Origin: Candidatus Heimdallarchaeota archaeon
Lineage (GTDB): Archaea > Asgardarchaeota > Heimdallarchaeia > Heimdallarchaeales > Heimdallarchaeaceae
Length of the DNA: 32,000 nt
Direction of reading: 5' to 3'
Assembly: GCA_030668875.1 (NCBI GenBank)
Contig: DAOVER010000002.1
Location: forward strand, 60,001 to 92,000
Shown here: piece by piece, positions 7,584 through 22,218 of the stretch
How positions within the stretch are numbered: position 1 is the stretch's first letter
Layout of the letters: every line of letters begins with the position of its first letter
The notes under the pieces: generated by a model
What the model saw: the letters and a program-made list of their open reading frames with translations, nothing else
What the model was told of the DNA's origin: nothing
Databases searched by the model: none
Program-made: the position numbers and the translations under genes

Positions 7584-8675
7584 TCATTTTGAATATTTTT
7601 CAATGGCATCTAGGTTTACATTTATTCCTAAACCAGGTTGTTTATTTGGTACTGATATGGTACCATCACTATTTAACTCGAATATTGGATCAACTAAATA
7701 ATTTGTATAGTATCTCTCACTTTCGCTTATATCATTAGGCAATGTAAAGGTTGAAAGGCTTGCTACTGCTAGATTCTTTGCTCTTCCAATTCCTGTTTCA
7801 AGCATTCCTCCGCACCAAAGAGGAAAACTATTTTCTTTTGCTAATTCATGAATGTGAAGAGTTTCAGTTATTCCACCAACTCTAGCTGGTTTTACATTTA
7901 TAATTCTAGTAGCATCTGATTCGATTGCAACTCTAGCATCATCCACACTTTTTATTGATTCATCAAGACATATTGGAGTTGCAATTTCTTTCTGTAGCTT
8001 TGCATGATCAAGAATATCATAATACTGCAAAGGTTGCTCAATCATCATCAAGTTGAATCTGTCAAGTGATATGAAAATATCCTTATCTTTGAGTCTGTAG
8101 GCACTGTTTGCGTCAACCATTAAAGGAATATTTGGGTAGACGTCCCTTATTTTCTTTACAATCTCTACATCCCAGTTTGGTTCTATCTTGATTTTGATTC
8201 TTTGATAATTTTTCTCCAAAGCTTTTCCAATTTTTTCTATAAGAATATCTGTATTCTGTTGAATTCCTAATGATATTCCTGAAGGAATTGATTCCTTGGT
8301 TCCCCCGATAAGTTCTTGAAGAGATTTATTGTTCATATGTCCATATAAACCCCAAATAGCATCCTCAATACAGGCTTTGGCCATTTGATTCCCCTTTATT
8401 TGTTGAACAAGTTTCTTGAAATCTCTGGGGTGGTCTAAATCTGTTTCTTTTAACCAAGGAGAAATGAAGTTTGTAATGATGGATTGACAGGAGTCAATTG
8501 TTTCTCCAGAATACCATGGACCTTTTTCTGCAACACACTCTCCATAACCATCGTATCCTTCTGATTGAACTCGAGTAACTAAAATCTCTCTTTCTTGAGT
8601 TACTCCAAAACTAGTCCTGAAAGGATTTCTAAGCTCCATTTTAACATGATATAGTTTTATTGCTTCAATTTTCAT
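7584..8675 (-). CDS. menC: o-Succinylbenzoate synthase / N-succinylamino-acid racemase (NSAR/OSBS subfamily, enolase superfamily)
   Basis: MKIEAIKLYHV...PFRTSFG, KIKI catalytic Lys motif, metal ligands VDAN / EQP / LDES, second Lys in NVKPARVGG, CGGMLETGIG. Start set at ATG 8675 (MKIE) rather than 8735. Confidence 0.9.
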   Translation of the reverse strand: MKIEAIKLYHVKMELRNPFRTSFGVTQEREILVTRVQSEGYDGYGECVAEKGPWYSGETIDSCQSIITNFISPWLKETDLDHPRDFKKLVQQIKGNQMAKACIEDAIWGLYGHMNNKSLQELIGGTKESIPSGISLGIQQNTDILIEKIGKALEKNYQRIKIKIEPNWDVEIVKKIRDVYPNIPLMVDANSAYRLKDKDIFISLDRFNLMMIEQPLQYYDILDHAKLQKEIATPICLDESIKSVDDARVAIESDATRIINVKPARVGGITETLHIHELAKENSFPLWCGGMLETGIGRAKNLAVASLSTFTLPNDISESERYYTNYLVDPIFELNSDGTISVPNKQPGLGINVNLDAIEKYSK

Positions 8676-8715
8676 TTTTATTCGCTCTTTTATTATATTT
8701 TTAATTATTAGAATA

Positions 8716-9567
8716 CTAAGAATCAACAGATTCAAGAATACTTAATACGTGATAAGCCTTCCAAGGTGTTATACTTTTGTCAAGGATAAAATCTATAGTT
8801 GAAAGGCCTTTATCGAAGTAGTTTGTGAGAACCTTCCTCGTTTCTTTTCGCCACTCTTTTGCGAGTTCATTATTGCTTTTCATAATTGTTGTGAAATTAA
8901 TGGGGATTTCAGCAAAAACAATTGTTTCTTGGATATCTAAATCCAATTCTTTGACCTTTAGTATTCCGCTGTTAGAAGTTGTTTTGATTGAATGATAACG
9001 ATCATTATTGATGATTTCTGTATAATCTTCGAAGTCATTGCTTAAGCGTTTCTTAACGTGAGATGAATCGATAAACCAATTGCAGTATAACCTATCGGTA
9101 TCAATACCAATATTCAATTCATCATGCATATCTCCCCAGTATTTAATTTTGTAATTGTTACAAATCGCTCCAAGTTTATGCAGATTTATATAGCAATTTT
9201 TACTTTGGAGAGGATCAAAGGTCCAGTTTATTGTTTTGAAATTTTTCTCCAAAGCCCATTTTCTCTGTTCATGTTTTAGTTGAATACCAATTCCTTTGTC
9301 TTGATGCTCTTTTACAACAGCATTATGGTGTGAATAAATGAAATTGCCATAGGGATCAATTCGCCCCATCCACCCCCATACATAACCTACAATTTCCTGA
9401 TTTAGATAAGCAGCAATAACCACCCCCCCACTTCGATGAGTTGCATAAATTACTCTCTTAGGGACTATTTCTCTGTCTGGAAACCCCCAAGCATTGATTT
9501 GTATATTTTCAATTTTGTTGTACTCACCATAGTCTGTTAGTTCTTTATAGTCAACAGTTTCCTTCAT
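8716..9567 (-). CDS. GNAT N-acyltransferase of the family linked to NSAR/OSBS (putative D-amino-acid N-succinyltransferase)
   Basis: YSHHNAV..EHQDKGIG..LK..QR.WA, WTFDPL...N.YINLHKLGA, YWGDMHDELNIGIDTDRL. Lies 40 nt upstream of, and co-oriented with, the NSAR/OSBS gene. Confidence 0.85.
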   Translation of the reverse strand: MKETVDYKELTDYGEYNKIENIQINAWGFPDREIVPKRVIYATHRSGGVVIAAYLNQEIVGYVWGWMGRIDPYGNFIYSHHNAVVKEHQDKGIGIQLKHEQRKWALEKNFKTINWTFDPLQSKNCYINLHKLGAICNNYKIKYWGDMHDELNIGIDTDRLYCNWFIDSSHVKKRLSNDFEDYTEIINNDRYHSIKTTSNSGILKVKELDLDIQETIVFAEIPINFTTIMKSNNELAKEWRKETRKVLTNYFDKGLSTIDFILDKSITPWKAYHVLSILESVDS

Positions 9568-9651
9568 CAAGCTTTAAAAAAAGTATGTTGATAAAAGATT
9601 TACGCTAAGTTTTGTAATAACTAATGTAAAACCTCTTGAGTTTCTATCTGT

Positions 9652-12284: not shown

Positions 12285-12800
12285 TTAATCTTTATCTTGT
12301 TCTAGTGCTAGTTCTGCAATTTGTTTGAACATTGGGAAAAGATTTGCATTTTCTTTTGCTGATACTTCAAAGTATGTTGTATCATGTCCTTTTGCAAATT
12401 CTTCTCCTTCCTCCTTAGTGACTTCTCTTCTTTCTTCCAAGTCAATTTTATTACCAGCTATTATGACAGGAATTTTACCGATACCTTCCTCTAGTTTTTC
12501 TAGCCAGAAGGTAAGTTTCTGAAAACTCTCCTTTTTTGTAATATCAAAAATCAATACTGCAACTACTGATCCTCGAAAATATGTTGGGAGAACAGAGTAG
12601 AAACGTTCTTGAGAACCAGAATCACCAATAATGAGTTTGATTTCTTCACCATCGATAATCGTATTCCATATAAGAAAATTTGCACCTAACGTAGGTTGAT
12701 GAGTAATGGGAAAAGAATTTTGTGCTTGACGAAGAGCTATGGATGTTTTCCCTACACCTGGTTCTCCACATAAAGATACTTTGAAGCTTTTTTGCGTCAT
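12285..12800 (-). CDS. Rab-like small GTPase (Ras superfamily, Asgard type, no C-terminal prenylation motif)
   Basis: G1 GEPGVGKT, G2 PTLG, G3 GDSGSQE (atypical), G4 NKID, G5 SAK. RabF-like motifs LGANF, KLIIG, RFYSVL, YFRGS, LIFDIT. Ends ...ELALEQDKD. Confidence 0.93.
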   Translation of the reverse strand: MTQKSFKVSLCGEPGVGKTSIALRQAQNSFPITHQPTLGANFLIWNTIIDGEEIKLIIGDSGSQERFYSVLPTYFRGSVVAVLIFDITKKESFQKLTFWLEKLEEGIGKIPVIIAGNKIDLEERREVTKEEGEEFAKGHDTTYFEVSAKENANLFPMFKQIAELALEQDKD

Positions 12801-12884
12801 ACTATGGTTTCTGAATCCTTTCAAAGTTTTAAAGAGTTTTTATTCTACTAGCAGCAATATAGAAAAGAGTATAAGGAAAAATAA

Positions 12885-12891
12885 TTTAAAC
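12885..12891 (+). promoter_or_regulatory. Putative TATA box (TTTAAAC) with a purine-rich BRE-like run, for the small ORF-radical SAM unit
   Basis: aaggaaaaataaTTTAAAC ends 27 nt before ATG 12919. Confidence 0.45.
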
Positions 12892-12918: not shown

Positions 12919-13101
12919 ATGAGTGATGCAGAAAAATGTGGCGATTATGAGATATATTTTGAAAATGATTGGTGGGTAGTTAAAAATACAAAGGAAAACA
13001 AAATCATCGGAAAATTCATCTCAAAAGATGCTGCATTAGATAAAGTAGCTGTTTTTCTTCAAGACGAAGAAGGAAGAATGGAATCTGAATCTGTTTGTTG
13101 A
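12919..13101 (+). CDS. Small 60-aa protein; candidate radical SAM substrate (RiPP precursor) or small partner domain
   Basis: MSDAEKCGDYEIYFENDWWVVKNTKENKIIGKFISKDAALDKVAVFLQDEEGRMESESVC. Stop lies 5 nt before the radical SAM ATG. The track's longer 12739 version overlaps the Rab gene and is unlikely. Confidence 0.7.
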   Translation: MSDAEKCGDYEIYFENDWWVVKNTKENKIIGKFISKDAALDKVAVFLQDEEGRMESESVC

Positions 13102-13106
13102 TGTAG

Positions 13107-14456
13107 ATGCTAGACTGTGATTCTTCATACCATGTCTTTGAAGTCCATAATACTATCATTTTAATTGATATATACGCTCAAATGATTTGGGAACTTAATT
13201 CTGAAAGTGTTGGGAATATTAGACATCAAATAGAATCTCTAAAAAAATATGGCTTTTTTTCAAATGAGAATAATCATTTTGATGATATGGATATGGGGGG
13301 TCAAGAACTCAATTATATTGTTATTAATCCTTCAAATGAATGCAATCTCTCATGCTGGTATTGTTATGTAGATAGAACGGGAAATAACAATGTCAGACAT
13401 CTAACTCCTGAAAAGATATTTTCAAAGATTGAAATGTTTCTTGAAAATAAAAAGAAAAATGGATCAAAAACCCCCATAGCTTTCTCACTCTACTTTACAG
13501 GTGAAATATCTATTAATTTCCAAGTATTTCAGAATACTAGTAGAAAAATAGATCAGATTAGAGATAAATATGAGTTTCAGATATCACTTTTACTTCCTCC
13601 TACTAATCTTTTCAAACCTACAAAACAGTTTGTAGAGTATATCAATGATTATGGTTACATAACTGTTTCAATAGATTTAGCAAATCAACAACAGATTAGT
13701 GCGATAAACAAGAACATCAAGCTATTTGATGAGGGTGTAGTTAAACATTTGATTATTCCCATTCATTCAAAAACTAAAAACATCTTTAGTATCTATCAAA
13801 AATATATGAGTAGTTTTAATAAAGTTTCAATGAGACCTGTAAGAATAACTCAAAATTCGATTTTTCCTTGGACTAAACAAAGCCTAAATGAGTTCAAATT
13901 AGAGATAGAGAAATTTGTAGGAAAATTATTGTTGTTAGATGAAAAACAAGTAGCAAATTTTCTGATATCAATTGGACCATCGGATTATTTTGTAAAGTTC
14001 ATTGATTCGATATTGACAAGAGAGAAGAAGATTATACGGTGTCCAGCTGGAAGAACTGCAATAGCATTAGACCATAATTTGAAACAATTTCCTTGTTCTG
14101 GGTTAATTGGTGCGCGTGAGTTTCAGAAAGAGTATACTCCTGAGAAAAAGGGTAGCTGGGAAGAAGAAACATTATCTTCTGTAAATTCTGATAAATGCTC
14201 AAAGTGTGCAATCAAATATTATTGCGGGGGTTTTTGTGTCGATTGGGAATTCAAAGAGAAGAAAGGACCCATTTATAAAGAAATTTCTTCAGAGTGTTTA
14301 GTTAATTGTATCTACTTTGAAAATGCTGCGTATTTCATCCTTAAATTACAGAAAAAATACCCGTCTATTCTAAGAAACTATATTGAAAAAAAACAGAGAA
14401 AATTTAGGTTGAGTTATAACCTAAATCTAGATGATTTTACTAAGATATTTGTCTAA
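13107..14456 (+). CDS. Radical SAM / SPASM-domain protein with an N-terminal RRE-like segment (resembles CteB / thioether peptide maturases)
   Basis: CNLSCWYC motif. SPASM cysteines RCPAG...FPCSGLIG...CSKC..KYYCGGFC...C.VNC. N-terminal YHVFEVHNTIILIDIYAQMIWEL...LKKYGFF resembles an RRE. Confidence 0.88.
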   Translation: MLDCDSSYHVFEVHNTIILIDIYAQMIWELNSESVGNIRHQIESLKKYGFFSNENNHFDDMDMGGQELNYIVINPSNECNLSCWYCYVDRTGNNNVRHLTPEKIFSKIEMFLENKKKNGSKTPIAFSLYFTGEISINFQVFQNTSRKIDQIRDKYEFQISLLLPPTNLFKPTKQFVEYINDYGYITVSIDLANQQQISAINKNIKLFDEGVVKHLIIPIHSKTKNIFSIYQKYMSSFNKVSMRPVRITQNSIFPWTKQSLNEFKLEIEKFVGKLLLLDEKQVANFLISIGPSDYFVKFIDSILTREKKIIRCPAGRTAIALDHNLKQFPCSGLIGAREFQKEYTPEKKGSWEEETLSSVNSDKCSKCAIKYYCGGFCVDWEFKEKKGPIYKEISSECLVNCIYFENAAYFILKLQKKYPSILRNYIEKKQRKFRLSYNLNLDDFTKIFV

Positions 14457-14465
14457 ACTTATCTT

Positions 14466-14876
14466 CTATATAAACCAGGTAAATAGTGTTGGAAAGTCTG
14501 CTGACGAAAAATCGAGAACACCAACTAATCCCATTATTATTAAGAATACCCAACTTAATAGAAACCATAGTAGAAGTGTTCCTAATGTTGTAAATCCTGC
14601 ACTCTTATCACCAACTCCTCCTAAAGTAATCCATATCACCCAACATAGAAAGAATATTATGACTCCAAATAGAATCTTGAGGGCAGAACCCAATCCGTCA
14701 ATATATGCCCATCCAAAGACCCACGCTGTGGATATTACTGCTGATAGGATAATATTTAACCAGGTCCATCTTCGAGAATCTCTTCTAAACATAATCCCAC
14801 ACATTATTGCGGATGATATGTAGAAAAGAGCGAAGTTTATACCTACTACAGCTATAGTTTTCCATGGTTCGTCCAT
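14466..14876 (-). CDS. Small membrane protein (about 4 TM), unknown function
   Basis: Four hydrophobic segments. ATG 14876 (MDEPWK); TTG 14894 is an alternative start. Confidence 0.7.
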   Translation of the reverse strand: MDEPWKTIAVVGINFALFYISSAIMCGIMFRRDSRRWTWLNIILSAVISTAWVFGWAYIDGLGSALKILFGVIIFFLCWVIWITLGGVGDKSAGFTTLGTLLLWFLLSWVFLIIMGLVGVLDFSSADFPTLFTWFI

Positions 14877-14973
14877 ATTCTTGGAATACTTCAATCAGTA
14901 AATAAACTTTATTTCAGAGGAAAAGCAAGAAATTAGAAAAAGTTAAGCGCAACATTAACAAGATAGGAGTTGT

Positions 14974-16122
14974 ATGTTATTAATAATGATCTTCATTCCA
15001 ACTAAAGAAGAACATGCAAAGAAGTGTTTAATCTGCAATGAAGAGAAATTAGTGGCTAGTATCTTATCCGTTTGTAAAGATTGTTTGAGGAAAGGATCTA
15101 CGAAAGTTGCAGAGCTAATATTAAATGCTCATAAAAGAGCTAGATCCAACTATAATCTTCCTTTAACTGCTCCTAGTAGTGATAGAATAAGCTGTTCTTT
15201 ATGTAACCATAATTGCGGATTAGATGAGAATGAAACAAGTTATTGTGGTTTGAGATTTAGAAATAATGGTGTTAAGATTTCTACACATTCTACAAAAGAA
15301 ATGGGGTTGCTTCACTATTATCTTGATCCACTTCCTTGTAATTGTTGTGCAGCTTGGTTTTGTCCTGCAGGTACTGGGGCTGGCTATCCTGAATATGCTT
15401 CCAGCCAAACTAAAGAACTAGGTTTCTACAATCTATCTGTATTCTTCTATGGATGTTCTTTCGATTGTCTTTTTTGCCAGAATCATAATCACAAGAGAAT
15501 TGCTGATGGTACTAAAGTATCAGCATCCCATCTGGTTCAGAAATTTCAAAACAATCCCAAAATTAATTGTATCTGTTTCTTTGGTGGATCACCAGAACCT
15601 CAGTTTCCCTTCGCAATAAACGTTTCTAAACAAATACTTGAAATTGCAGAAACTGAAAATAGAATAGCTAGAATCTGTTGGGAATGGAATGGTTTCGGGA
15701 ATAAACATTATGTCAAAAAAGCTGCTGCACTCTCCTTAAAGTCTGGTGGTAATATTAAATTTGATTTAAAAGCATGGGATTCCAATATTCATCAAGCTTT
15801 AACAGGAGTGAAAAATGAAGTCGTATTGGAAAATTTTGAATATGTAGGTAGGGAATTCTTTGATTTAAGACCAGATTTGCCAATCTTGAATGCGACAACT
15901 CTTCTAGTTCCCGGTTATGTAGATGAAGTAGAAATAGAAAATATTGCTTCTTTCATTTCCTCAATTAATGAAAACATTCCATACTCATTACTTGGTTTCT
16001 ATCCGCAGTTTGAGTTTTCTGACCTTCCTCTTACTACTTTAGATTTAGCAGAAAAATGCTACAATATTGCATCAAAATATCTGAAAAATGTGAATATAGG
16101 AAATAGACATTTACTGTTTTAA
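14974..16122 (+). CDS. Radical SAM protein, PflA / AmmeMemoRadiSam-like family, with additional N-terminal Cys clusters
   Basis: GCSFDCLFCQN, CSLCNHNC...GLR, FFGGSPEP, WEWNG, FDLKAWD...H..LTG..N..VLEN, TTLLVPGY, LLGFYPQF. N-terminal CxxC pairs (CLIC, CKDC). Confidence 0.88.
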   Translation: MLLIMIFIPTKEEHAKKCLICNEEKLVASILSVCKDCLRKGSTKVAELILNAHKRARSNYNLPLTAPSSDRISCSLCNHNCGLDENETSYCGLRFRNNGVKISTHSTKEMGLLHYYLDPLPCNCCAAWFCPAGTGAGYPEYASSQTKELGFYNLSVFFYGCSFDCLFCQNHNHKRIADGTKVSASHLVQKFQNNPKINCICFFGGSPEPQFPFAINVSKQILEIAETENRIARICWEWNGFGNKHYVKKAAALSLKSGGNIKFDLKAWDSNIHQALTGVKNEVVLENFEYVGREFFDLRPDLPILNATTLLVPGYVDEVEIENIASFISSINENIPYSLLGFYPQFEFSDLPLTTLDLAEKCYNIASKYLKNVNIGNRHLLF

Positions 16123-20440: not shown

Positions 20441-20553
20441 ACTAAAACCCATTTTATCTTACTCTGATTAGTCTTAAAAACGTTTTGAGCAGTTTTGTTA
20501 AAATATTCATACAACTAGTGAGATTTATTAATGCTAGATGTTCAATTATCTCG

Positions 20554-22218
20554 ATGAGAAAAACTCAAGCTTTATTCCTTATTGTTTTGTTTGTCAACTT
20601 TCAATTTCTCAATGTTGTTATAAATTCTTCAGCGACATTTAATATTAAAAAACAAGAGACACTTGACCCCTATATCTGGTTTTGGGAAGAACTCTCAAAT
20701 GCTCCTGGGCAAATTAGTGGCGAGGATGTAGTTTATTGGGGCGAGAATTTGGGACCCTATCACAATTACACGGAATTGACAGAAAAGCTTGTACTTCTAA
20801 ATAGTACTTTTCCTGATATAGTTGACGTATTCTCAATAGGAAAAACTTGGCATAATAATGATGTATGGTGTGTAAAACTAACCAATGAAACAATAACCAG
20901 TTCAAAAACAGAATATTACATCGTAGCAGAACATCATGCTAGAGAATTAATCTCTGTAGAAAATGCACTCTATTTCATAGATAAAATTGTATATGATTCA
21001 ATCTTTGGTCTCTATGAGGAGCTATTATCGAGTAGAGAATTATATGTCATTCCTATGTTAAACCCAGATGGTATCTCAATTATTCATTGGTTTCCTGAGC
21101 AACGCAAAAATCTACACCCCATTGACGATGACGGGGATGGGATTAATGACACCGACATGGATGGTTTACTTGATGATGAGCTAGAGAGGACATATTATTG
21201 GAATCCTGCTGCAAATACTTCTGCAATTCGGGAATTTGATTTAGATGGTGATGGGTCAATTGCTGAAGACTTACCTGGGGGTGTCGATCTCAATCGAAAT
21301 TATGGAGTTAACTGGGAAGGTACTGGTTCTTCATCAGTTAAAAGAAATCCTCTTTATCGAGGAGCTTATCCATTTAGTGAGAATGAAACTCAAATCATGA
21401 GAGACTTCATGCGAGAACATGCTTTCAATTTTGCAATTAGTCTTCACAGTGGTATTAAATCTATAATCACACCTTGGGGTCATAATGGTTCCTTACCTTT
21501 AGCTGATGAAGATGAATTTAATGCATTGCTAGTTGACTTGCAAGATATTCTCCATTGGCCACTTTGGAATGAATCAGGGGGATACCTCACAAATGGTGTG
21601 TGGGAAGATTATTGTTATGCAGCTCATGATATTCTCTGCTTTACCTTAGAGACTTACTATGATATCTGGACGGGGTCATATTTTGATTATTTCAATCCTC
21701 CTGGAAACCAGATTCTATCTAATTGTGAATATGTTTACCCAGCTATGATCTATTTAGCTGAAGAACCAAGATTAACTTATTCCAATAACCTCCCTAGTAT
21801 AGAAGTAACTAATCCTTCAACGATTAATCAAGTATTTGAAAATTATACCATTACTTGGACAATGGATGACTTGGATGGAGATAATTTAAATTGTACAGTT
21901 TTAGTATCCGAAAATGGTTGGAACTGGGATGTTTTGGCTACAAATCTAACAGATCAAACCTCCTTCTTCTGGAATGTAACTTCTGTAGATCCAGGTTCAT
22001 ATTACCTAAAAGTCGCTGTATATGATGGAAAGGATTGGATTTCTGATGTTAGTGAAATTAGCTTAAACGTTCGAAATGTAAAACCTCCATCTCCTTTTGC
22101 TTTCTATATTCTTGCAGGTATTTTTGGTACTCTAGCAGTTGTCTACCTCTTCTTCTATTTACGAAAATCTAAAAATCTTAGCAAGATGTGGGGACCCGAA
22201 GATAGTACTAAAAAGTAA
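20554..22218 (+). CDS. Membrane-anchored M14 zinc carboxypeptidase with C-terminal Ig-like domain
   Basis: HARE (Zn ligands), NPDG, QRKN, GVDLNRNY, SLHS, TLET (catalytic Glu). N-terminal signal helix and C-terminal TM helix followed by RKSK. ATG 20554 preferred over TTG 20485. Confidence 0.9.
   Translation: MRKTQALFLIVLFVNFQFLNVVINSSATFNIKKQETLDPYIWFWEELSNAPGQISGEDVVYWGENLGPYHNYTELTEKLVLLNSTFPDIVDVFSIGKTWHNNDVWCVKLTNETITSSKTEYYIVAEHHARELISVENALYFIDKIVYDSIFGLYEELLSSRELYVIPMLNPDGISIIHWFPEQRKNLHPIDDDGDGINDTDMDGLLDDELERTYYWNPAANTSAIREFDLDGDGSIAEDLPGGVDLNRNYGVNWEGTGSSSVKRNPLYRGAYPFSENETQIMRDFMREHAFNFAISLHSGIKSIITPWGHNGSLPLADEDEFNALLVDLQDILHWPLWNESGGYLTNGVWEDYCYAAHDILCFTLETYYDIWTGSYFDYFNPPGNQILSNCEYVYPAMIYLAEEPRLTYSNNLPSIEVTNPSTINQVFENYTITWTMDDLDGDNLNCTVLVSENGWNWDVLATNLTDQTSFFWNVTSVDPGSYYLKVAVYDGKDWISDVSEISLNVRNVKPPSPFAFYILAGIFGTLAVVYLFFYLRKSKNLSKMWGPEDSTKK

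What the first reader, a model, noticed from the sequence alone, without database searches (positions are those of the whole stretch)
12919..14456. Unannotated 60-aa ORF coupled to an RRE-radical SAM-SPASM enzyme: candidate new archaeal RiPP system
Seen: a TATA-like box 27 nt before ATG 12919, a 60-aa ORF (two Cys, at position 7 and as the last residue; a WW pair; acidic C-tail) and, 5 nt later, a radical SAM enzyme with CxxxCxxC, eight SPASM-region cysteines and an RRE-like N-terminus. Established: RRE plus SPASM enzymes such as CteB and the SCIFF/ranthipeptide maturases bind a neighbouring short precursor and cross-link it. The peptide matches none of the precursor families I know (it is not six-Cys SCIFF), and the enzyme's GGE motif is altered to TGEI. 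Inference: a new Cys-thioether or Trp cross-linked peptide. Alternative: the peptide's beta-beta-beta-alpha pattern (YEIYFE / WWVVKN / KIIGKF / SKDAALDKVAVFLQ) suggests a small folded DUF2188-like protein, so this could be protein rather than peptide modification. No protease or exporter is co-transcribed.
Basis: partly seen in the sequence, partly recalled or inferred. Interest (0 to 1): 0.78.

Follow-up and report, generated by a model that had tools for sequence, protein, structure and literature searches.

The report
Cys-tailed mini-protein with radical-SAM partner
A 60-residue protein that ends in an invariant cysteine is encoded next to a CteB-like radical SAM enzyme in almost every Heimdallarchaeaceae (Asgard archaeal) genome searched, and the enzyme most likely modifies the protein's tail chemically, though this has not been tested.

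Summary
The 60-aa ORF (12919-13101) and the 449-aa radical SAM/SPASM gene (13107-14456) are real and lie 5 nt apart behind a conserved BRE/TATA element.

- **Distribution.** The enzyme occurs in 26 of 29 other genomes of the same family and the small protein in 27 of 29. Neither occurs in about 370 other genomes of the phylum. The small gene lies directly upstream wherever the contig allows.
- **Small protein.** It is under strong purifying selection (dN/dS 0.06-0.18) and is better conserved than the enzyme in 251 of 253 pairs. It is predicted to be a folded four-strand, one-helix domain. An acidic linker of variable length follows, then a disordered tail with invariant E-x-x-S-[V/T]-C, where Cys is always the last residue.
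- **Enzyme.** Its closest solved relative is the thioether-forming CteB (Z 25.8, N-terminal RRE region included). All seven SPASM cysteines map onto CteB's 3-Cys and 4-Cys auxiliary clusters. It reaches no named family's cut-off.

Best reading (about 0.45): this is a modification of a protein rather than a classical RiPP, namely a thioether crosslink at the C-terminal Cys tail. No chemistry was shown, and the complex prediction gave no verdict. The scan had not noted this family before; it has noted other, different rSAM-SPASM cysteine systems in Asgard archaea. I rate it a new variant of a known kind.

The parts
12875..12890 (+). Archaeal promoter: purine-rich BRE-like GGAAAAA (12875-12881) followed by the TATA box TAATTTAAA (12882-12890). 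It ends 28 nt before the ATG, which implies a very short or absent 5' leader.
   Evidence: Read directly. The same GAAAA..ATTTA[AT]A element lies at the same distance from the ATG in most of the 24 related loci, while the surrounding intergenic DNA diverges.
12919..13101 (+). Gene for the 60-aa small protein (P0001), the proposed substrate.
   Evidence: Translation. Orthologues of 58-68 aa were found in 27 of 29 other family genomes and in none of about 370 genomes elsewhere in the phylum. dN/dS is 0.06-0.18. It is the only ORF in the genome ending E..S[VT]C.
12928..13065 (+). Folded domain of the small protein, residues 4-49: strands 4-7, 10-15, 18-23 and 28-33, and helix 36-49. It holds the invariant C7, G8, Y13, W19, G31, F33, A39 and Q48.
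   Evidence: AlphaFold2 on 24 sequences gave a mean pLDDT of 75, with blocks of 86-88 in the core. The fold is a generic beta-sheet plus helix, like YegP/HVO_2922, MmoD and AP2, at Z of only about 5.
13066..13098 (+). Acidic linker (residues 50-54, variable in sequence and length) and predicted-disordered tail with invariant E55, S58 and C60, and nearly invariant E57. Cys is always the last residue. This is the proposed modification site.
   Evidence: pLDDT is below 50 for residues 52-60. Alignment A1 shows a 2-residue deletion in one locus and a 6-residue insertion in two loci in the linker, and an invariant E-x-x-S-[VT]-C end.
13107..14456 (+). Gene for the 449-aa radical SAM/SPASM enzyme (P0002), 5 nt after the small ORF's stop.
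   Evidence: Translation. Pfam finds Radical_SAM. There are weak NCBIfam hits to RiPP maturases. The CteB profile match has E 7.7e-27. AlphaFold2 gives pLDDT 85; the top structural match is CteB at TM 0.66 and Z 25.8. In relatives the enzyme's start lies from 32 nt inside the small ORF's 3' end to about 9 nt after its stop.
13119..13259 (+). N-terminal RRE-like domain, residues about 5-51: strands 8-13, 16-21 and 26-29, and helix 35-46. This is the short form, lacking two helices present in other genera.
   Evidence: Secondary structure and pLDDT of 81-93 are. The VIA alignment to CteB starts at model residue 5 and CteB residue 1, whereas the anSME and ChlB matches align only from residues 62-68. 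The family profile aligns to CteB from residue 7. The deletion is seen. No Pfam PqqD hit was found, and the domain alone gave no PDB hit.
13341..13364 (+). Radical SAM cluster motif C79-x3-C83-x2-C86.
   Evidence: Invariant in 25 orthologues. It aligns with the CteB radical SAM motif.
14040..14297 (+). SPASM domain with seven invariant cysteines: C312 and C330, then C364-x2-C367-x5-C373-x3-C377, then C397.
   Evidence: Invariant columns are. The residue-by-residue alignment to CteB, combined with the published CteB ligand list (PMC10177961), maps C312, C330 and C377 to the three-Cys auxiliary cluster 1. It maps C364, C367, C373 and C397 to the four-Cys auxiliary cluster 2.

Best explanation
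This is a two-gene module for post-translational modification of a protein, restricted to the family Heimdallarchaeaceae. The steps below are marked as shown or inferred.

1. **Expression (shown in part).** The two genes share one BRE/TATA promoter and are close enough for translational coupling.
2. **Substrate (inferred).** The 60-aa product is the substrate. It is a small folded domain carrying a flexible acidic tail that ends in Cys.
3. **Docking (inferred).** The enzyme's N-terminal RRE-like domain docks the small protein, and the tail threads into the active site.
4. **Cys binding (inferred by homology).** As in CteB, PapB and Tte1186, the thiolate of the C-terminal Cys60 binds the open iron of the three-cysteine auxiliary cluster 1.
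5. **Crosslink (inferred).** The 5'-deoxyadenosyl radical abstracts a hydrogen from a nearby tail residue. Invariant E55 or S58 are the best candidates, then V/T59. A sulfur-to-carbon thioether closes a small ring at the C-terminus.
6. **Fate (inferred).** No protease or exporter is linked, and the pair is a single-copy gene pair present in nearly all family genomes searched. The product therefore probably stays in the cell as a modified mini-protein rather than being released as a peptide natural product.

Shown here: gene structure, conservation, co-occurrence, predicted fold and cluster-ligand pattern. Inferred: binding, the site and the chemistry.
For: **Linkage**
- The small ORF is directly upstream and co-directional in every locus with upstream DNA.
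- Enzyme start codons lie between 32 nt inside the small ORF's 3' end and about 9 nt after its stop.
- Phyletic co-occurrence is strict. The enzyme is in 26 of 29 and the small protein in 27 of 29 other family genomes. The mismatch is a small-ORF fragment at a contig end, and both are absent from about 370 other genomes of the phylum.

**Enzyme type**
- The CteB profile match has E 7.7e-27 and covers the RRE, the core and the SPASM domain.
- CteB is the top structural match at Z 25.8, rmsd 3.3 over 378 residues, and the alignment includes the N-terminal domain.
- The best NCBIfam hits are peptide-modifying rSAM/SPASM maturase families; the characterised ones are thioether-forming (PapB, QhpD, SCIFF maturase).
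- Seven invariant SPASM cysteines map 3+4 onto CteB's auxiliary clusters. This is the scheme in which substrate Cys or SeCys binds auxiliary cluster 1 (PMC10177961; PMC13692751).

**Substrate features**
- Two invariant cysteines are present.
- E55, S58 and C60 are invariant, and E57 nearly so, inside a segment predicted to be disordered and set behind a linker of variable length. Conservation of that kind points to recognition or chemistry rather than folding.
- dN/dS is 0.06-0.18.
- It is the only ORF in the genome with this ending, and there is no other Cys-rich small ORF in the locus.

**Precedent**
- CrpC/CrpA in Methanococcus shows RRE-rSAM-SPASM thioether formation on a whole protein with an N-terminal recognition domain (PMC13692751).
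Against: - No experimental or transcript evidence exists.
- Adjacency is weaker evidence than usual, because the whole neighbourhood of about 15 kb is syntenic across the family.
- The enzyme reaches none of the curated cut-offs of named thioether maturases. The N-terminal domain alone matches neither Pfam PqqD nor any PDB chain.
- A thioether needs no free carboxylate, so it does not explain why Cys must be the very last residue.
- Known ranthipeptide motifs mostly place Cys before the acceptor (CX3D, CxxQ/D). Here any tail acceptor must precede it.
- The acceptor at position -3 (E57) is replaced by Gly in one genus.
Confidence: 0.45

Rival explanations
1. The chemistry resembles mycofactocin or AviCys rather than a simple crosslink. 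The enzyme acts on the free C-terminus by oxidative decarboxylation of Cys60, possibly with ring closure onto the beta-branched penultimate residue. This would give a protein-bound or later released thiol-derived cofactor or small molecule, with the mini-protein serving as a scaffold.
For: - Cys is the last residue in all 24 aligned orthologues and in the three cluster representatives found by the profile search, despite linker indels. This suggests the alpha-carboxylate matters.
- The penultimate residue is always beta-branched (V or T). This parallels the Val-Tyr end of MftA, on which MftC acts (my own knowledge of the mycofactocin pathway, not checked here).
- Being a single-copy gene pair in nearly all family genomes, with very strong conservation of the small protein, fits a cofactor better than a secondary metabolite.
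Against: - MftC and PqqE models are not among the 25 best NCBIfam hits, which are dominated by thioether maturases.
- No MftB-, MftD- or MftE-like genes and no peptidase lie in the operon.
- The cluster-ligand pattern is the CteB/PapB one.
Confidence: 0.15
2. The modified site is the N-terminal motif C7-G-[D/E/N]-[F/Y]-E11 rather than the tail. This would be a PapB-like Cys-X3-Glu or Cys-X-Asp thioether, and the C-terminal tail would serve for recognition or for something unrelated.
For: - C7 and G8 are invariant, and D9 and E11 are nearly invariant.
- The spacing matches the CX3D/E motif that PapB crosslinks, with Cys preceding the acceptor (PMC10177961).
- PapB is the second-best NCBIfam hit at 1.8e-17.
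Against: - Residues 4-15 are predicted to form a beta-hairpin of the folded domain, with C7-G8 at its turn (pLDDT 74-88). They are therefore less accessible than the disordered tail.
- E11 is replaced by Val or Ile in two orthologues.
- This reading leaves the invariant E55, S58 and C-terminal Cys unexplained.
Confidence: 0.12
3. The small protein is not the substrate. It could be a co-expressed accessory such as a chaperone, a redox or sulfur partner, or a metal-binding dimer using Cys7 and Cys60. It could also be an unrelated neighbour, with the enzyme acting on another protein or on a small molecule.
For: - The whole region is syntenic in the family, so adjacency alone is weak.
- The small protein is a compact folded domain of a generic beta-sheet plus helix type.
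- In a close relative the enzyme gene was swapped for a very divergent allele while the small gene stayed nearly unchanged. The two are therefore not tightly co-adapted.
Against: - An RRE-type domain implies a peptide or protein substrate, and CteB-type enzymes need a substrate Cys.
- No other candidate is encoded nearby.
- The spacing fits translational coupling, the pair shares one promoter, and both genes are found only in this one family and in the same genomes.
- The protein is strongly acidic, so it is unlikely to be a DNA-binding regulator despite its AP2-like topology.
Confidence: 0.18
4. This is a classical secreted RiPP natural product. The folded N-terminal part acts as a leader that an unlinked protease removes, and a short modified C-terminal peptide is exported as a signal or antimicrobial.
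For: - The layout resembles a leader plus a C-terminal core next to an RRE-rSAM-SPASM maturase.
- An M14 carboxypeptidase gene lies 6 kb away in the syntenic block.
- The enzyme evolves fast and was exchanged between lineages.
Against: - There is no protease, transporter or immunity gene in the transcription unit.
- The 'leader' is the best conserved part and is predicted to fold.
- The pair is single-copy, present in nearly all family genomes searched, and found nowhere else. This is unlike mobile, patchily distributed biosynthetic clusters.
- The putative core would be only about 6 residues with one Cys.
Confidence: 0.05

Closest known systems
CteB with its SCIFF precursor CteA (Clostridium thermocellum; PDB 5WGG/5WHY; TIGR03974/TIGR03973)
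   Same: - It is the closest solved relative by sequence profile (E 7.7e-27) and by structure (Z 25.8, TM 0.66).
- The order of domains is the same: N-terminal RRE, rSAM core, SPASM.
- All seven SPASM cysteines are in the same 3+4 arrangement.
- A Cys-containing substrate is encoded directly upstream.
   Different: - Identity is only 17-19%. The TIGR03974 score is 46.6 bits against a cut-off of 425.
- The RRE is shortened in this genome.
- The partner is not a 45-residue six-Cys peptide. It is a folded 60-aa protein with two Cys, one of them the last residue.
- It is archaeal and confined to one family.
CrpC/CrpA of Methanococcus voltae (TIGR04463; PMC13692751)
   Same: Both involve an archaeal RRE-rSAM-SPASM enzyme with a seven-Cys SPASM domain. 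CrpC installs thioethers on a protein rather than a short peptide, and an N-terminal domain of the substrate is thought to engage the RRE. This is the best functional precedent for modification of a protein.
   Different: - CrpA is a 28.8-kDa protein with ten repeats of a Cys motif in which Cys precedes the acceptor (CxxQ/D).
- Here there is a single terminal Cys and no repeats.
- The TIGR04463 model scores only 19.6 bits against a cut-off of 525.
PapB/PapA (freyrasin) and Tte1186: ranthipeptide maturases
   Same: PapB is the second-best NCBIfam hit (63.6 bits). The scheme of a three-Cys auxiliary cluster 1 with an open iron that binds the substrate Cys or SeCys is the same (PMC10177961). Acidic acceptor residues lie near the Cys.
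   Different: The PapB cut-off of 340 bits is not reached. PapA has six CX3D motifs. Here the only comparable motif is C7-x3-E11 inside a predicted hairpin, and the tail has the reverse order, with the acceptor before the Cys.
QhpD/QhpC (quinohemoprotein amine dehydrogenase gamma subunit)
   Same: It is an rSAM/SPASM enzyme that forms Cys-to-Asp/Glu thioethers in a small protein subunit that stays in the cell as part of an enzyme. This is named as a protein-level example in PMC13692751. TIGR03906 gives a weak hit of 51.8 bits.
   Different: The hit covers only residues 31-195 and is far below the cut-off of 453. No dehydrogenase subunits, leader protease or flavoprotein genes lie nearby.
MftC/MftA (mycofactocin)
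   Same: In my own knowledge, not checked here, MftC is an rSAM/SPASM enzyme that acts strictly on the C-terminal residue of a small, highly conserved precursor with a beta-branched penultimate residue. The product is a cofactor rather than an antibiotic. This parallels the invariant terminal position of Cys60 after V/T59.
   Different: The terminal residue is Cys, not Tyr. The RRE is fused to the enzyme rather than being a separate MftB. No mftD, mftE or mftF genes are present, and the MftC model is not among the 25 best hits.

Membership tests
RRE-dependent rSAM/SPASM thioether maturases (CteB/PapB/Tte1186 type) | CxxxCxxC radical SAM cluster motif in a partial TIM barrel | tested here: met
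   C79, C83 and C86 are invariant in 25 orthologues. Pfam Radical_SAM scores 31.4 bits against a cut-off of 29.5. The barrel aligns with CteB and anSME.
RRE-dependent rSAM/SPASM thioether maturases (CteB/PapB/Tte1186 type) | Seven-Cys SPASM domain, with three Cys on auxiliary cluster 1 (leaving an open iron) and four on auxiliary cluster 2 | tested here: met
   C312, C330, C364, C367, C373, C377 and C397 are invariant. They align one-to-one with CteB C344, C362, C400, C403, C409, C413 and C432 (with the PDB numbering offset of 3; ligand list from PMC10177961). There is no eighth invariant Cys. Cluster content itself was not measured.
RRE-dependent rSAM/SPASM thioether maturases (CteB/PapB/Tte1186 type) | N-terminal RiPP recognition element (PqqD-like winged helix: three strands plus three helices) | tested here: inconclusive
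   **For:** the family profile aligns to CteB from residue 7. The model has three strands plus a helix at pLDDT 81-93. The VIA alignment to CteB starts at model residue 5, whereas enzymes without an RRE align only from residue 62 onward. **Against:** there is no Pfam PqqD hit for eight N-domains, no PDB hit for the domain profile alone, and two helices are missing in this genome.
RRE-dependent rSAM/SPASM thioether maturases (CteB/PapB/Tte1186 type) | Cys-containing substrate encoded next to the enzyme | tested here: met
   The small ORF, with invariant C7 and C60, lies directly upstream in every locus with upstream DNA.
RRE-dependent rSAM/SPASM thioether maturases (CteB/PapB/Tte1186 type) | Product carries a sulfur-to-carbon thioether (-2 Da, Cys no longer alkylatable) | not testable with these tools
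   This needs co-expression or reconstitution followed by mass spectrometry.
Named NCBIfam maturase families (SCIFF maturase TIGR03974, PapB NF047865, nif11 rSAM TIGR04064, QhpD TIGR03906, TIGR04463) | Whole-protein score at or above the curated cut-off | tested here: not met
   The scores against the cut-offs are 46.6 of 425, 63.6 of 340, 65.7 of 518.7, 51.8 of 453 and 19.6 of 525 bits.
SCIFF precursor (six cysteines in forty-five residues) | Peptide of about 45 residues with six Cys in the C-terminal half | tested here: not met
   The protein is 60 aa with two Cys only. There is no NCBIfam or Pfam hit at E up to 0.1.
Mycofactocin system (MftA/MftB/MftC) | C-terminal Val-Tyr precursor, a separate RRE protein MftB, and an MftC-family enzyme with mftD, mftE and mftF nearby | tested here: not met
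   The end is [V/T]-Cys. The RRE-like domain is fused to the enzyme. MftC is not among the 25 best NCBIfam hits. The neighbours are a Ras-like GTPase, a membrane protein, a second rSAM, DUF123 and a TPR protein.
DUF2188 / AP2-like / YegP-like small beta-sheet plus helix proteins (fold of the small protein) | Significant sequence or structure match to the family | tested here: inconclusive
   There is no Pfam hit. The Atlas feature score to a DUF2188 cluster is 0.86, below the 0.9 lead threshold. Structural Z is only 5-6 to MmoD, HVO_2922, NMB1088 and AP2, and Foldseek E is 0.2 or worse. hhalign against the enzyme's own N-domain gives probability 0.1.

The most novel reading that the evidence does not exclude
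The mini-protein is a genetically encoded thiol scaffold. Its strictly C-terminal Cys would be converted by the radical SAM enzyme into a new protein-bound or later released redox cofactor or small molecule. The logic would resemble mycofactocin, PQQ or the pearlins, but start from cysteine, and the product would be a housekeeping component specific to Heimdallarchaeaceae. The precise exchange of the enzyme gene between lineages while the scaffold stays fixed would then mean that divergent enzyme alleles are interchangeable for the same reaction.
Probability: 0.15. Interest if true: 0.85.

Novelty: new variant of a known kind. Interest (0 to 1): 0.62.

Why it matters
Radical SAM/SPASM enzymes with recognition domains are known mainly for making bacterial peptide natural products. 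Cases in which they modify a whole protein are few: QhpC, and CrpA reported in 2026.

This pair would add a minimal and easily tested example, one 60-residue folded protein with a single terminal cysteine. It comes from Asgard archaea, whose post-translational chemistry is almost unexplored.

The small protein is under stronger constraint than its enzyme, and the pair is present in nearly every family genome searched. The product therefore probably has a cellular role and is not an accessory weapon.

The system is small enough for direct heterologous co-expression. It could reveal either a new crosslink topology, with the acceptor before a C-terminal Cys, or a new chemistry that depends on the C-terminus.

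Tried and rejected
- **Complex prediction** of enzyme plus small protein: no verdict (score 0.02 against a mark of 0.32). It is not evidence either way.
- **Sequencing runs**: no RNA holder is listed. Only marine-sediment and cold-seep DNA runs hold the stretch, four of them possibly the source sample, so expression and co-transcription could not be checked.
- **Homology of the small protein:**
  - Pfam and NCBIfam gave no hit.
  - A word-based search found only close Heimdall relatives.
  - An exhaustive profile search of 1.84 billion representatives found three true clusters. The other hits were FG-GAP and AP2/SPOR repeat proteins matching one hairpin, which I rejected as low-complexity resemblance.
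- **Fold searches for the small protein**: only generic small beta-sheet plus helix matches at Z 5-6. No function can be drawn from them.
- **Small protein as a duplicated RRE:** rejected, hhalign probability 0.1.
- **N-terminal enzyme domain alone** against Pfam and PDB: nothing.
- **Selenocysteine read-through** of the small ORF's TGA stop (the window would read Cys-Sec-Cys-Arg-Cys): rejected. The downstream sequence is not conserved, and three loci use TAA or TAG.
- **The longer 120-aa ORF** from 12739: rejected.
- **A hidden tiny Cys-rich precursor ORF,** as in other Asgard rSAM systems noted by this scan: none found. The only candidates are a 19-aa ORF on the opposite strand in the promoter region and a 25-aa antisense ORF inside the enzyme gene. 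I did not test either for conservation and treat both as chance.
- **Literature**: no description of this pair was found. The absence holds only for the library searched.
Full report
**1. What is in the sequence**

The window is AT-rich archaeal DNA. Close homologues of both proteins come from MAGs named Candidatus Heimdallarchaeaceae or Heimdallarchaeota.

- At 12919-13101 (+) there is a 60-codon ORF.
- Five nucleotides after its TGA stop, a 449-codon ORF runs from 13107 to 14456.
- Upstream, a Ras-family GTPase gene is transcribed divergently (12285-12824).
- Downstream, the next gene (14466-14894, a 142-aa membrane protein with no Pfam family) is convergent. The transcription unit therefore holds just these two genes.
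- The TATA-like box, TTTAAA at 12885-12890 behind a purine-rich GGAAAAA, is conserved at the same distance from the ATG in most of the 24 related loci, while the rest of the intergenic DNA drifts. This fits an archaeal BRE/TATA promoter with a very short leader.

**2. Is the pair real and linked?**

A six-frame search of 399 genomes of the phylum found the enzyme in 26 of 29 other genomes of the window's own family and in none of about 370 genomes of other families.

tblastn and ORF extraction in those loci found the small ORF directly upstream on the same strand in every locus whose contig reaches upstream.

A profile of the small protein gave the mirror result: 27 of 29 in the family and none elsewhere, with one copy per genome.
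- The extra genome has only a fragment at a contig end.
- In one genome the two genes lie on different contigs, and there the enzyme gene is cut off at the start of its contig.
- The two genomes lacking both genes are 76% and 82% complete.

The enzyme's candidate start codons lie between 32 nt inside the small ORF's 3' end and about 9 nt after its stop. Several relatives have a TGATG or ATGCTAA overlap. This spacing fits translational coupling.

One caveat applies. About 15 kb around the pair is syntenic across the family, so adjacency alone is less telling than it would be in a shuffled genome. The promoter, the coupling distance and the shared restriction to one family are the stronger arguments.

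**3. The small protein**

- It is a real protein-coding gene. dN/dS against relatives is 0.06-0.18, and indels come in whole codons.
- It is more conserved than the enzyme in 251 of 253 pairwise comparisons.
- Invariant residues are M1, C7, G8, Y13, W19, G31, F33, A39, Q48, E55, S58 and C60.
- AlphaFold2 on 24 sequences predicts strands 4-7, 10-15, 18-23 and 28-33 and helix 36-49, with pLDDT blocks of 86-88 in the core. The tail, residues 52-60, is disordered at pLDDT below 50.
- Between the helix and the end lies an acidic linker that varies in sequence and length: one locus has a 2-residue deletion and two loci have a 6-residue insertion. The last six residues keep E-x-x-S-[V/T]-C, and Cys is always the final residue.
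- Invariance inside a disordered segment points to recognition or chemistry rather than folding.
- The fold is a common small beta-sheet plus helix arrangement, with Z of 5-6 to MmoD, the YegP-like HVO_2922 and NMB1088, and AP2. The Atlas feature lead to DUF2188 scores 0.86, below threshold. No function follows from these matches.
- The protein carries a net charge of about -6, so a DNA-binding role is unlikely.
- The family is tiny. An exhaustive profile search of 1.84 billion representatives returned three true clusters.
- No other ORF in this genome ends with the motif.

**4. The enzyme**

- Pfam sees only the radical SAM core.
- The best NCBIfam hits are peptide-modifying rSAM/SPASM maturase models: nif11-type, PapB, QhpD, the ScfB-related orphan, CbpB and the SCIFF maturase. 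All score far under their cut-offs.
- The family profile matches CteB at E 7.7e-27 in two stretches, which together cover CteB from residue 7 to residue 446.
- The AlphaFold2 model has pLDDT 85. Its best match is CteB, by Foldseek (TM 0.66) and by VIA-align (Z 25.8, rmsd 3.3, 378 residues, model 5-415 on CteB 1-450). The anSME and ChlB matches align only from residues 62-68 onward. The first 60 residues therefore occupy the place of CteB's recognition domain.
- In this genome and part of its genus that domain is shortened to three strands and one helix. Other genera keep an insert of 27-29 residues that matches CteB's first two helices.
- Taken alone, the domain matches neither Pfam PqqD nor any PDB chain. 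I therefore rate the RRE assignment as likely but not proven.
- Seven SPASM cysteines are invariant; the window's eighth, C401, is not.
- Counting through the HMMER alignment and using the published ligand list (PMC10177961), C312, C330 and C377 correspond to CteB's three-Cys auxiliary cluster 1. C364, C367, C373 and C397 correspond to the four-Cys cluster 2.
- This is the arrangement in which the substrate cysteine, or selenocysteine, was shown to bind an iron of cluster 1 in PapB and Tte1186. CrpC was proposed to use it as well.
- The enzyme family itself is sharply isolated. Forty-four clusters score 350 bits or more; those that carry a source name are Heimdallarchaeaceae, Heimdallarchaeota or Asgard-group MAGs. 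The next hit falls to 78 bits.

**5. How it most likely works**

Shown here: a shared promoter, spacing that fits coupled translation, strict co-occurrence, a CteB-type enzyme with an N-terminal docking-type domain and an open-iron cluster pattern, and a partner protein with an invariant Cys-ended flexible tail.

Inferred:
1. The enzyme docks the mini-protein.
2. Cys60 binds auxiliary cluster 1.
3. The 5'-deoxyadenosyl radical abstracts a hydrogen from a nearby tail residue. Invariant E55 or S58 are the best candidates.
4. A thioether ring forms.
5. No protease or exporter is linked and the pair is present in nearly all family genomes searched, so the product probably stays in the cell as a modified protein. 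QhpC and the recently described CrpA are precedents (PMC13692751).

I put this at about 0.45. The broader claim, that the small protein is the enzyme's substrate whatever the chemistry, I put at roughly 0.75.

**6. Rivals**

- **Carboxylate-dependent chemistry (0.15).** The strict terminal position of Cys and the always beta-branched penultimate residue are not explained by a simple crosslink. They recall chemistry that depends on the C-terminus, such as that of MftC on Val-Tyr. The enzyme's relatives argue against this, and no companion genes are present.
- **N-terminal site (0.12).** The motif C7-G-D-[F/Y]-E11 fits PapB's CX3D/E spacing and could be the site, or a second site. It lies in a predicted hairpin, however, and E11 is not invariant.
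- **Not the substrate (0.18).** The small protein may be an accessory or a mere neighbour. The regional synteny and the allele swap described below keep this alive.
- **Secreted RiPP (0.05).** This is the least likely reading.

**7. An unexpected extra**

Against the closely related genome G031, the flanking DNA is 84-96% identical at the nucleotide level. An island starting at the small ORF's stop codon and ending at the enzyme's stop is only 51-64% identical, and the membrane gene beyond it is intermediate at 71-78%.

Synonymous differences in the enzyme gene are saturated (pS 0.80), against 0.23 in the adjacent small ORF. The enzyme gene was therefore exchanged for a very divergent allele of the same family, still closest to the window's clade at 45-48%, while the small protein stayed 90% identical.

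Either divergent enzyme alleles are functionally interchangeable on one fixed substrate, or the enzyme is under a different and faster selective regime.

**8. Comparison, novelty and score**

The system works like the CteB/PapB/CrpC group, but it is not a member of any named family, since every cut-off was tested and not met. Its partner is a new protein family.

The differences from known systems are:
- a folded mini-protein instead of a leader peptide;
- a single candidate donor Cys at the very C-terminus, with any acceptor before it;
- a truncated recognition domain;
- a single-copy gene pair in nearly all genomes of one Asgard family.

I found no description in the papers searched. This scan had not seen this family before, although it has noted other rSAM-SPASM cysteine systems in Asgard archaea.

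I rate it a new variant of a known kind, with interest 0.62. It is well supported as a real, conserved and directly testable module, but its chemistry and role remain inferred.

Noticed in passing
window 13100-14500, compared with L035 (G031:C115): There is a sharply bounded island of divergence. Flanks are 84-96% identical at the nucleotide level, but the rSAM gene, from exactly the small ORF's stop to its own stop, is 51-64% identical with saturated synonymous sites (pS 0.80 against 0.23 in the small ORF). This indicates replacement of the enzyme gene by a very divergent allele through recombination while the small gene was kept.
   Followed up: partly
window 13107-13271, and alignment A3: The enzyme's N-terminal recognition-type domain exists in two forms. 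The long form (three strands plus about three helices) occurs in four other genera and part of this genus. The short form has lost 27-29 residues, roughly helices 1-2, and occurs in this genome and its nearer relatives. The small protein shows no matching change.
   Followed up: partly
window 14466-14894 (-): A 142-aa predicted membrane protein with no Pfam family lies convergent to the rSAM gene, 9 nt from its stop. It is adjacent in 5 of 8 wider loci examined and not found within the fetched stretch in the other 3. It is partly inside the divergence island, at 68% amino-acid identity to G031 against about 88-91% for the flanking genes.
   Followed up: partly
window 14974-16122 (+): A second radical SAM protein of 382 aa has a Cys-rich N-terminal region and weak similarity to glycyl-radical activases and the AmmeMemoRadiSam rSAM, all below cut-off. 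It lies next to the pair in 4 of 8 wider loci only.
   Followed up: no
window 20485-22218 (+): An M14 zinc carboxypeptidase gene lies about 6 kb downstream in the same syntenic block and is seen in three related loci. A carboxypeptidase could in principle release a modified C-terminal residue, but nothing links it to the pair.
   Followed up: no
window 12826-12870, and related loci: A second conserved AT-rich element (CTTTAAAG.. / TTTTAAAGAG) lies in the divergent intergenic region. It is probably the promoter of the Ras-family GTPase gene on the other strand.
   Followed up: no
window 7584-9570 (-): An enolase-superfamily (MR/MLE) gene and a GNAT acetyltransferase gene overlap by 20 nt and are syntenic throughout the family, next to two 428-aa proteins of unknown family downstream of the GTPase gene.
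   Followed up: no
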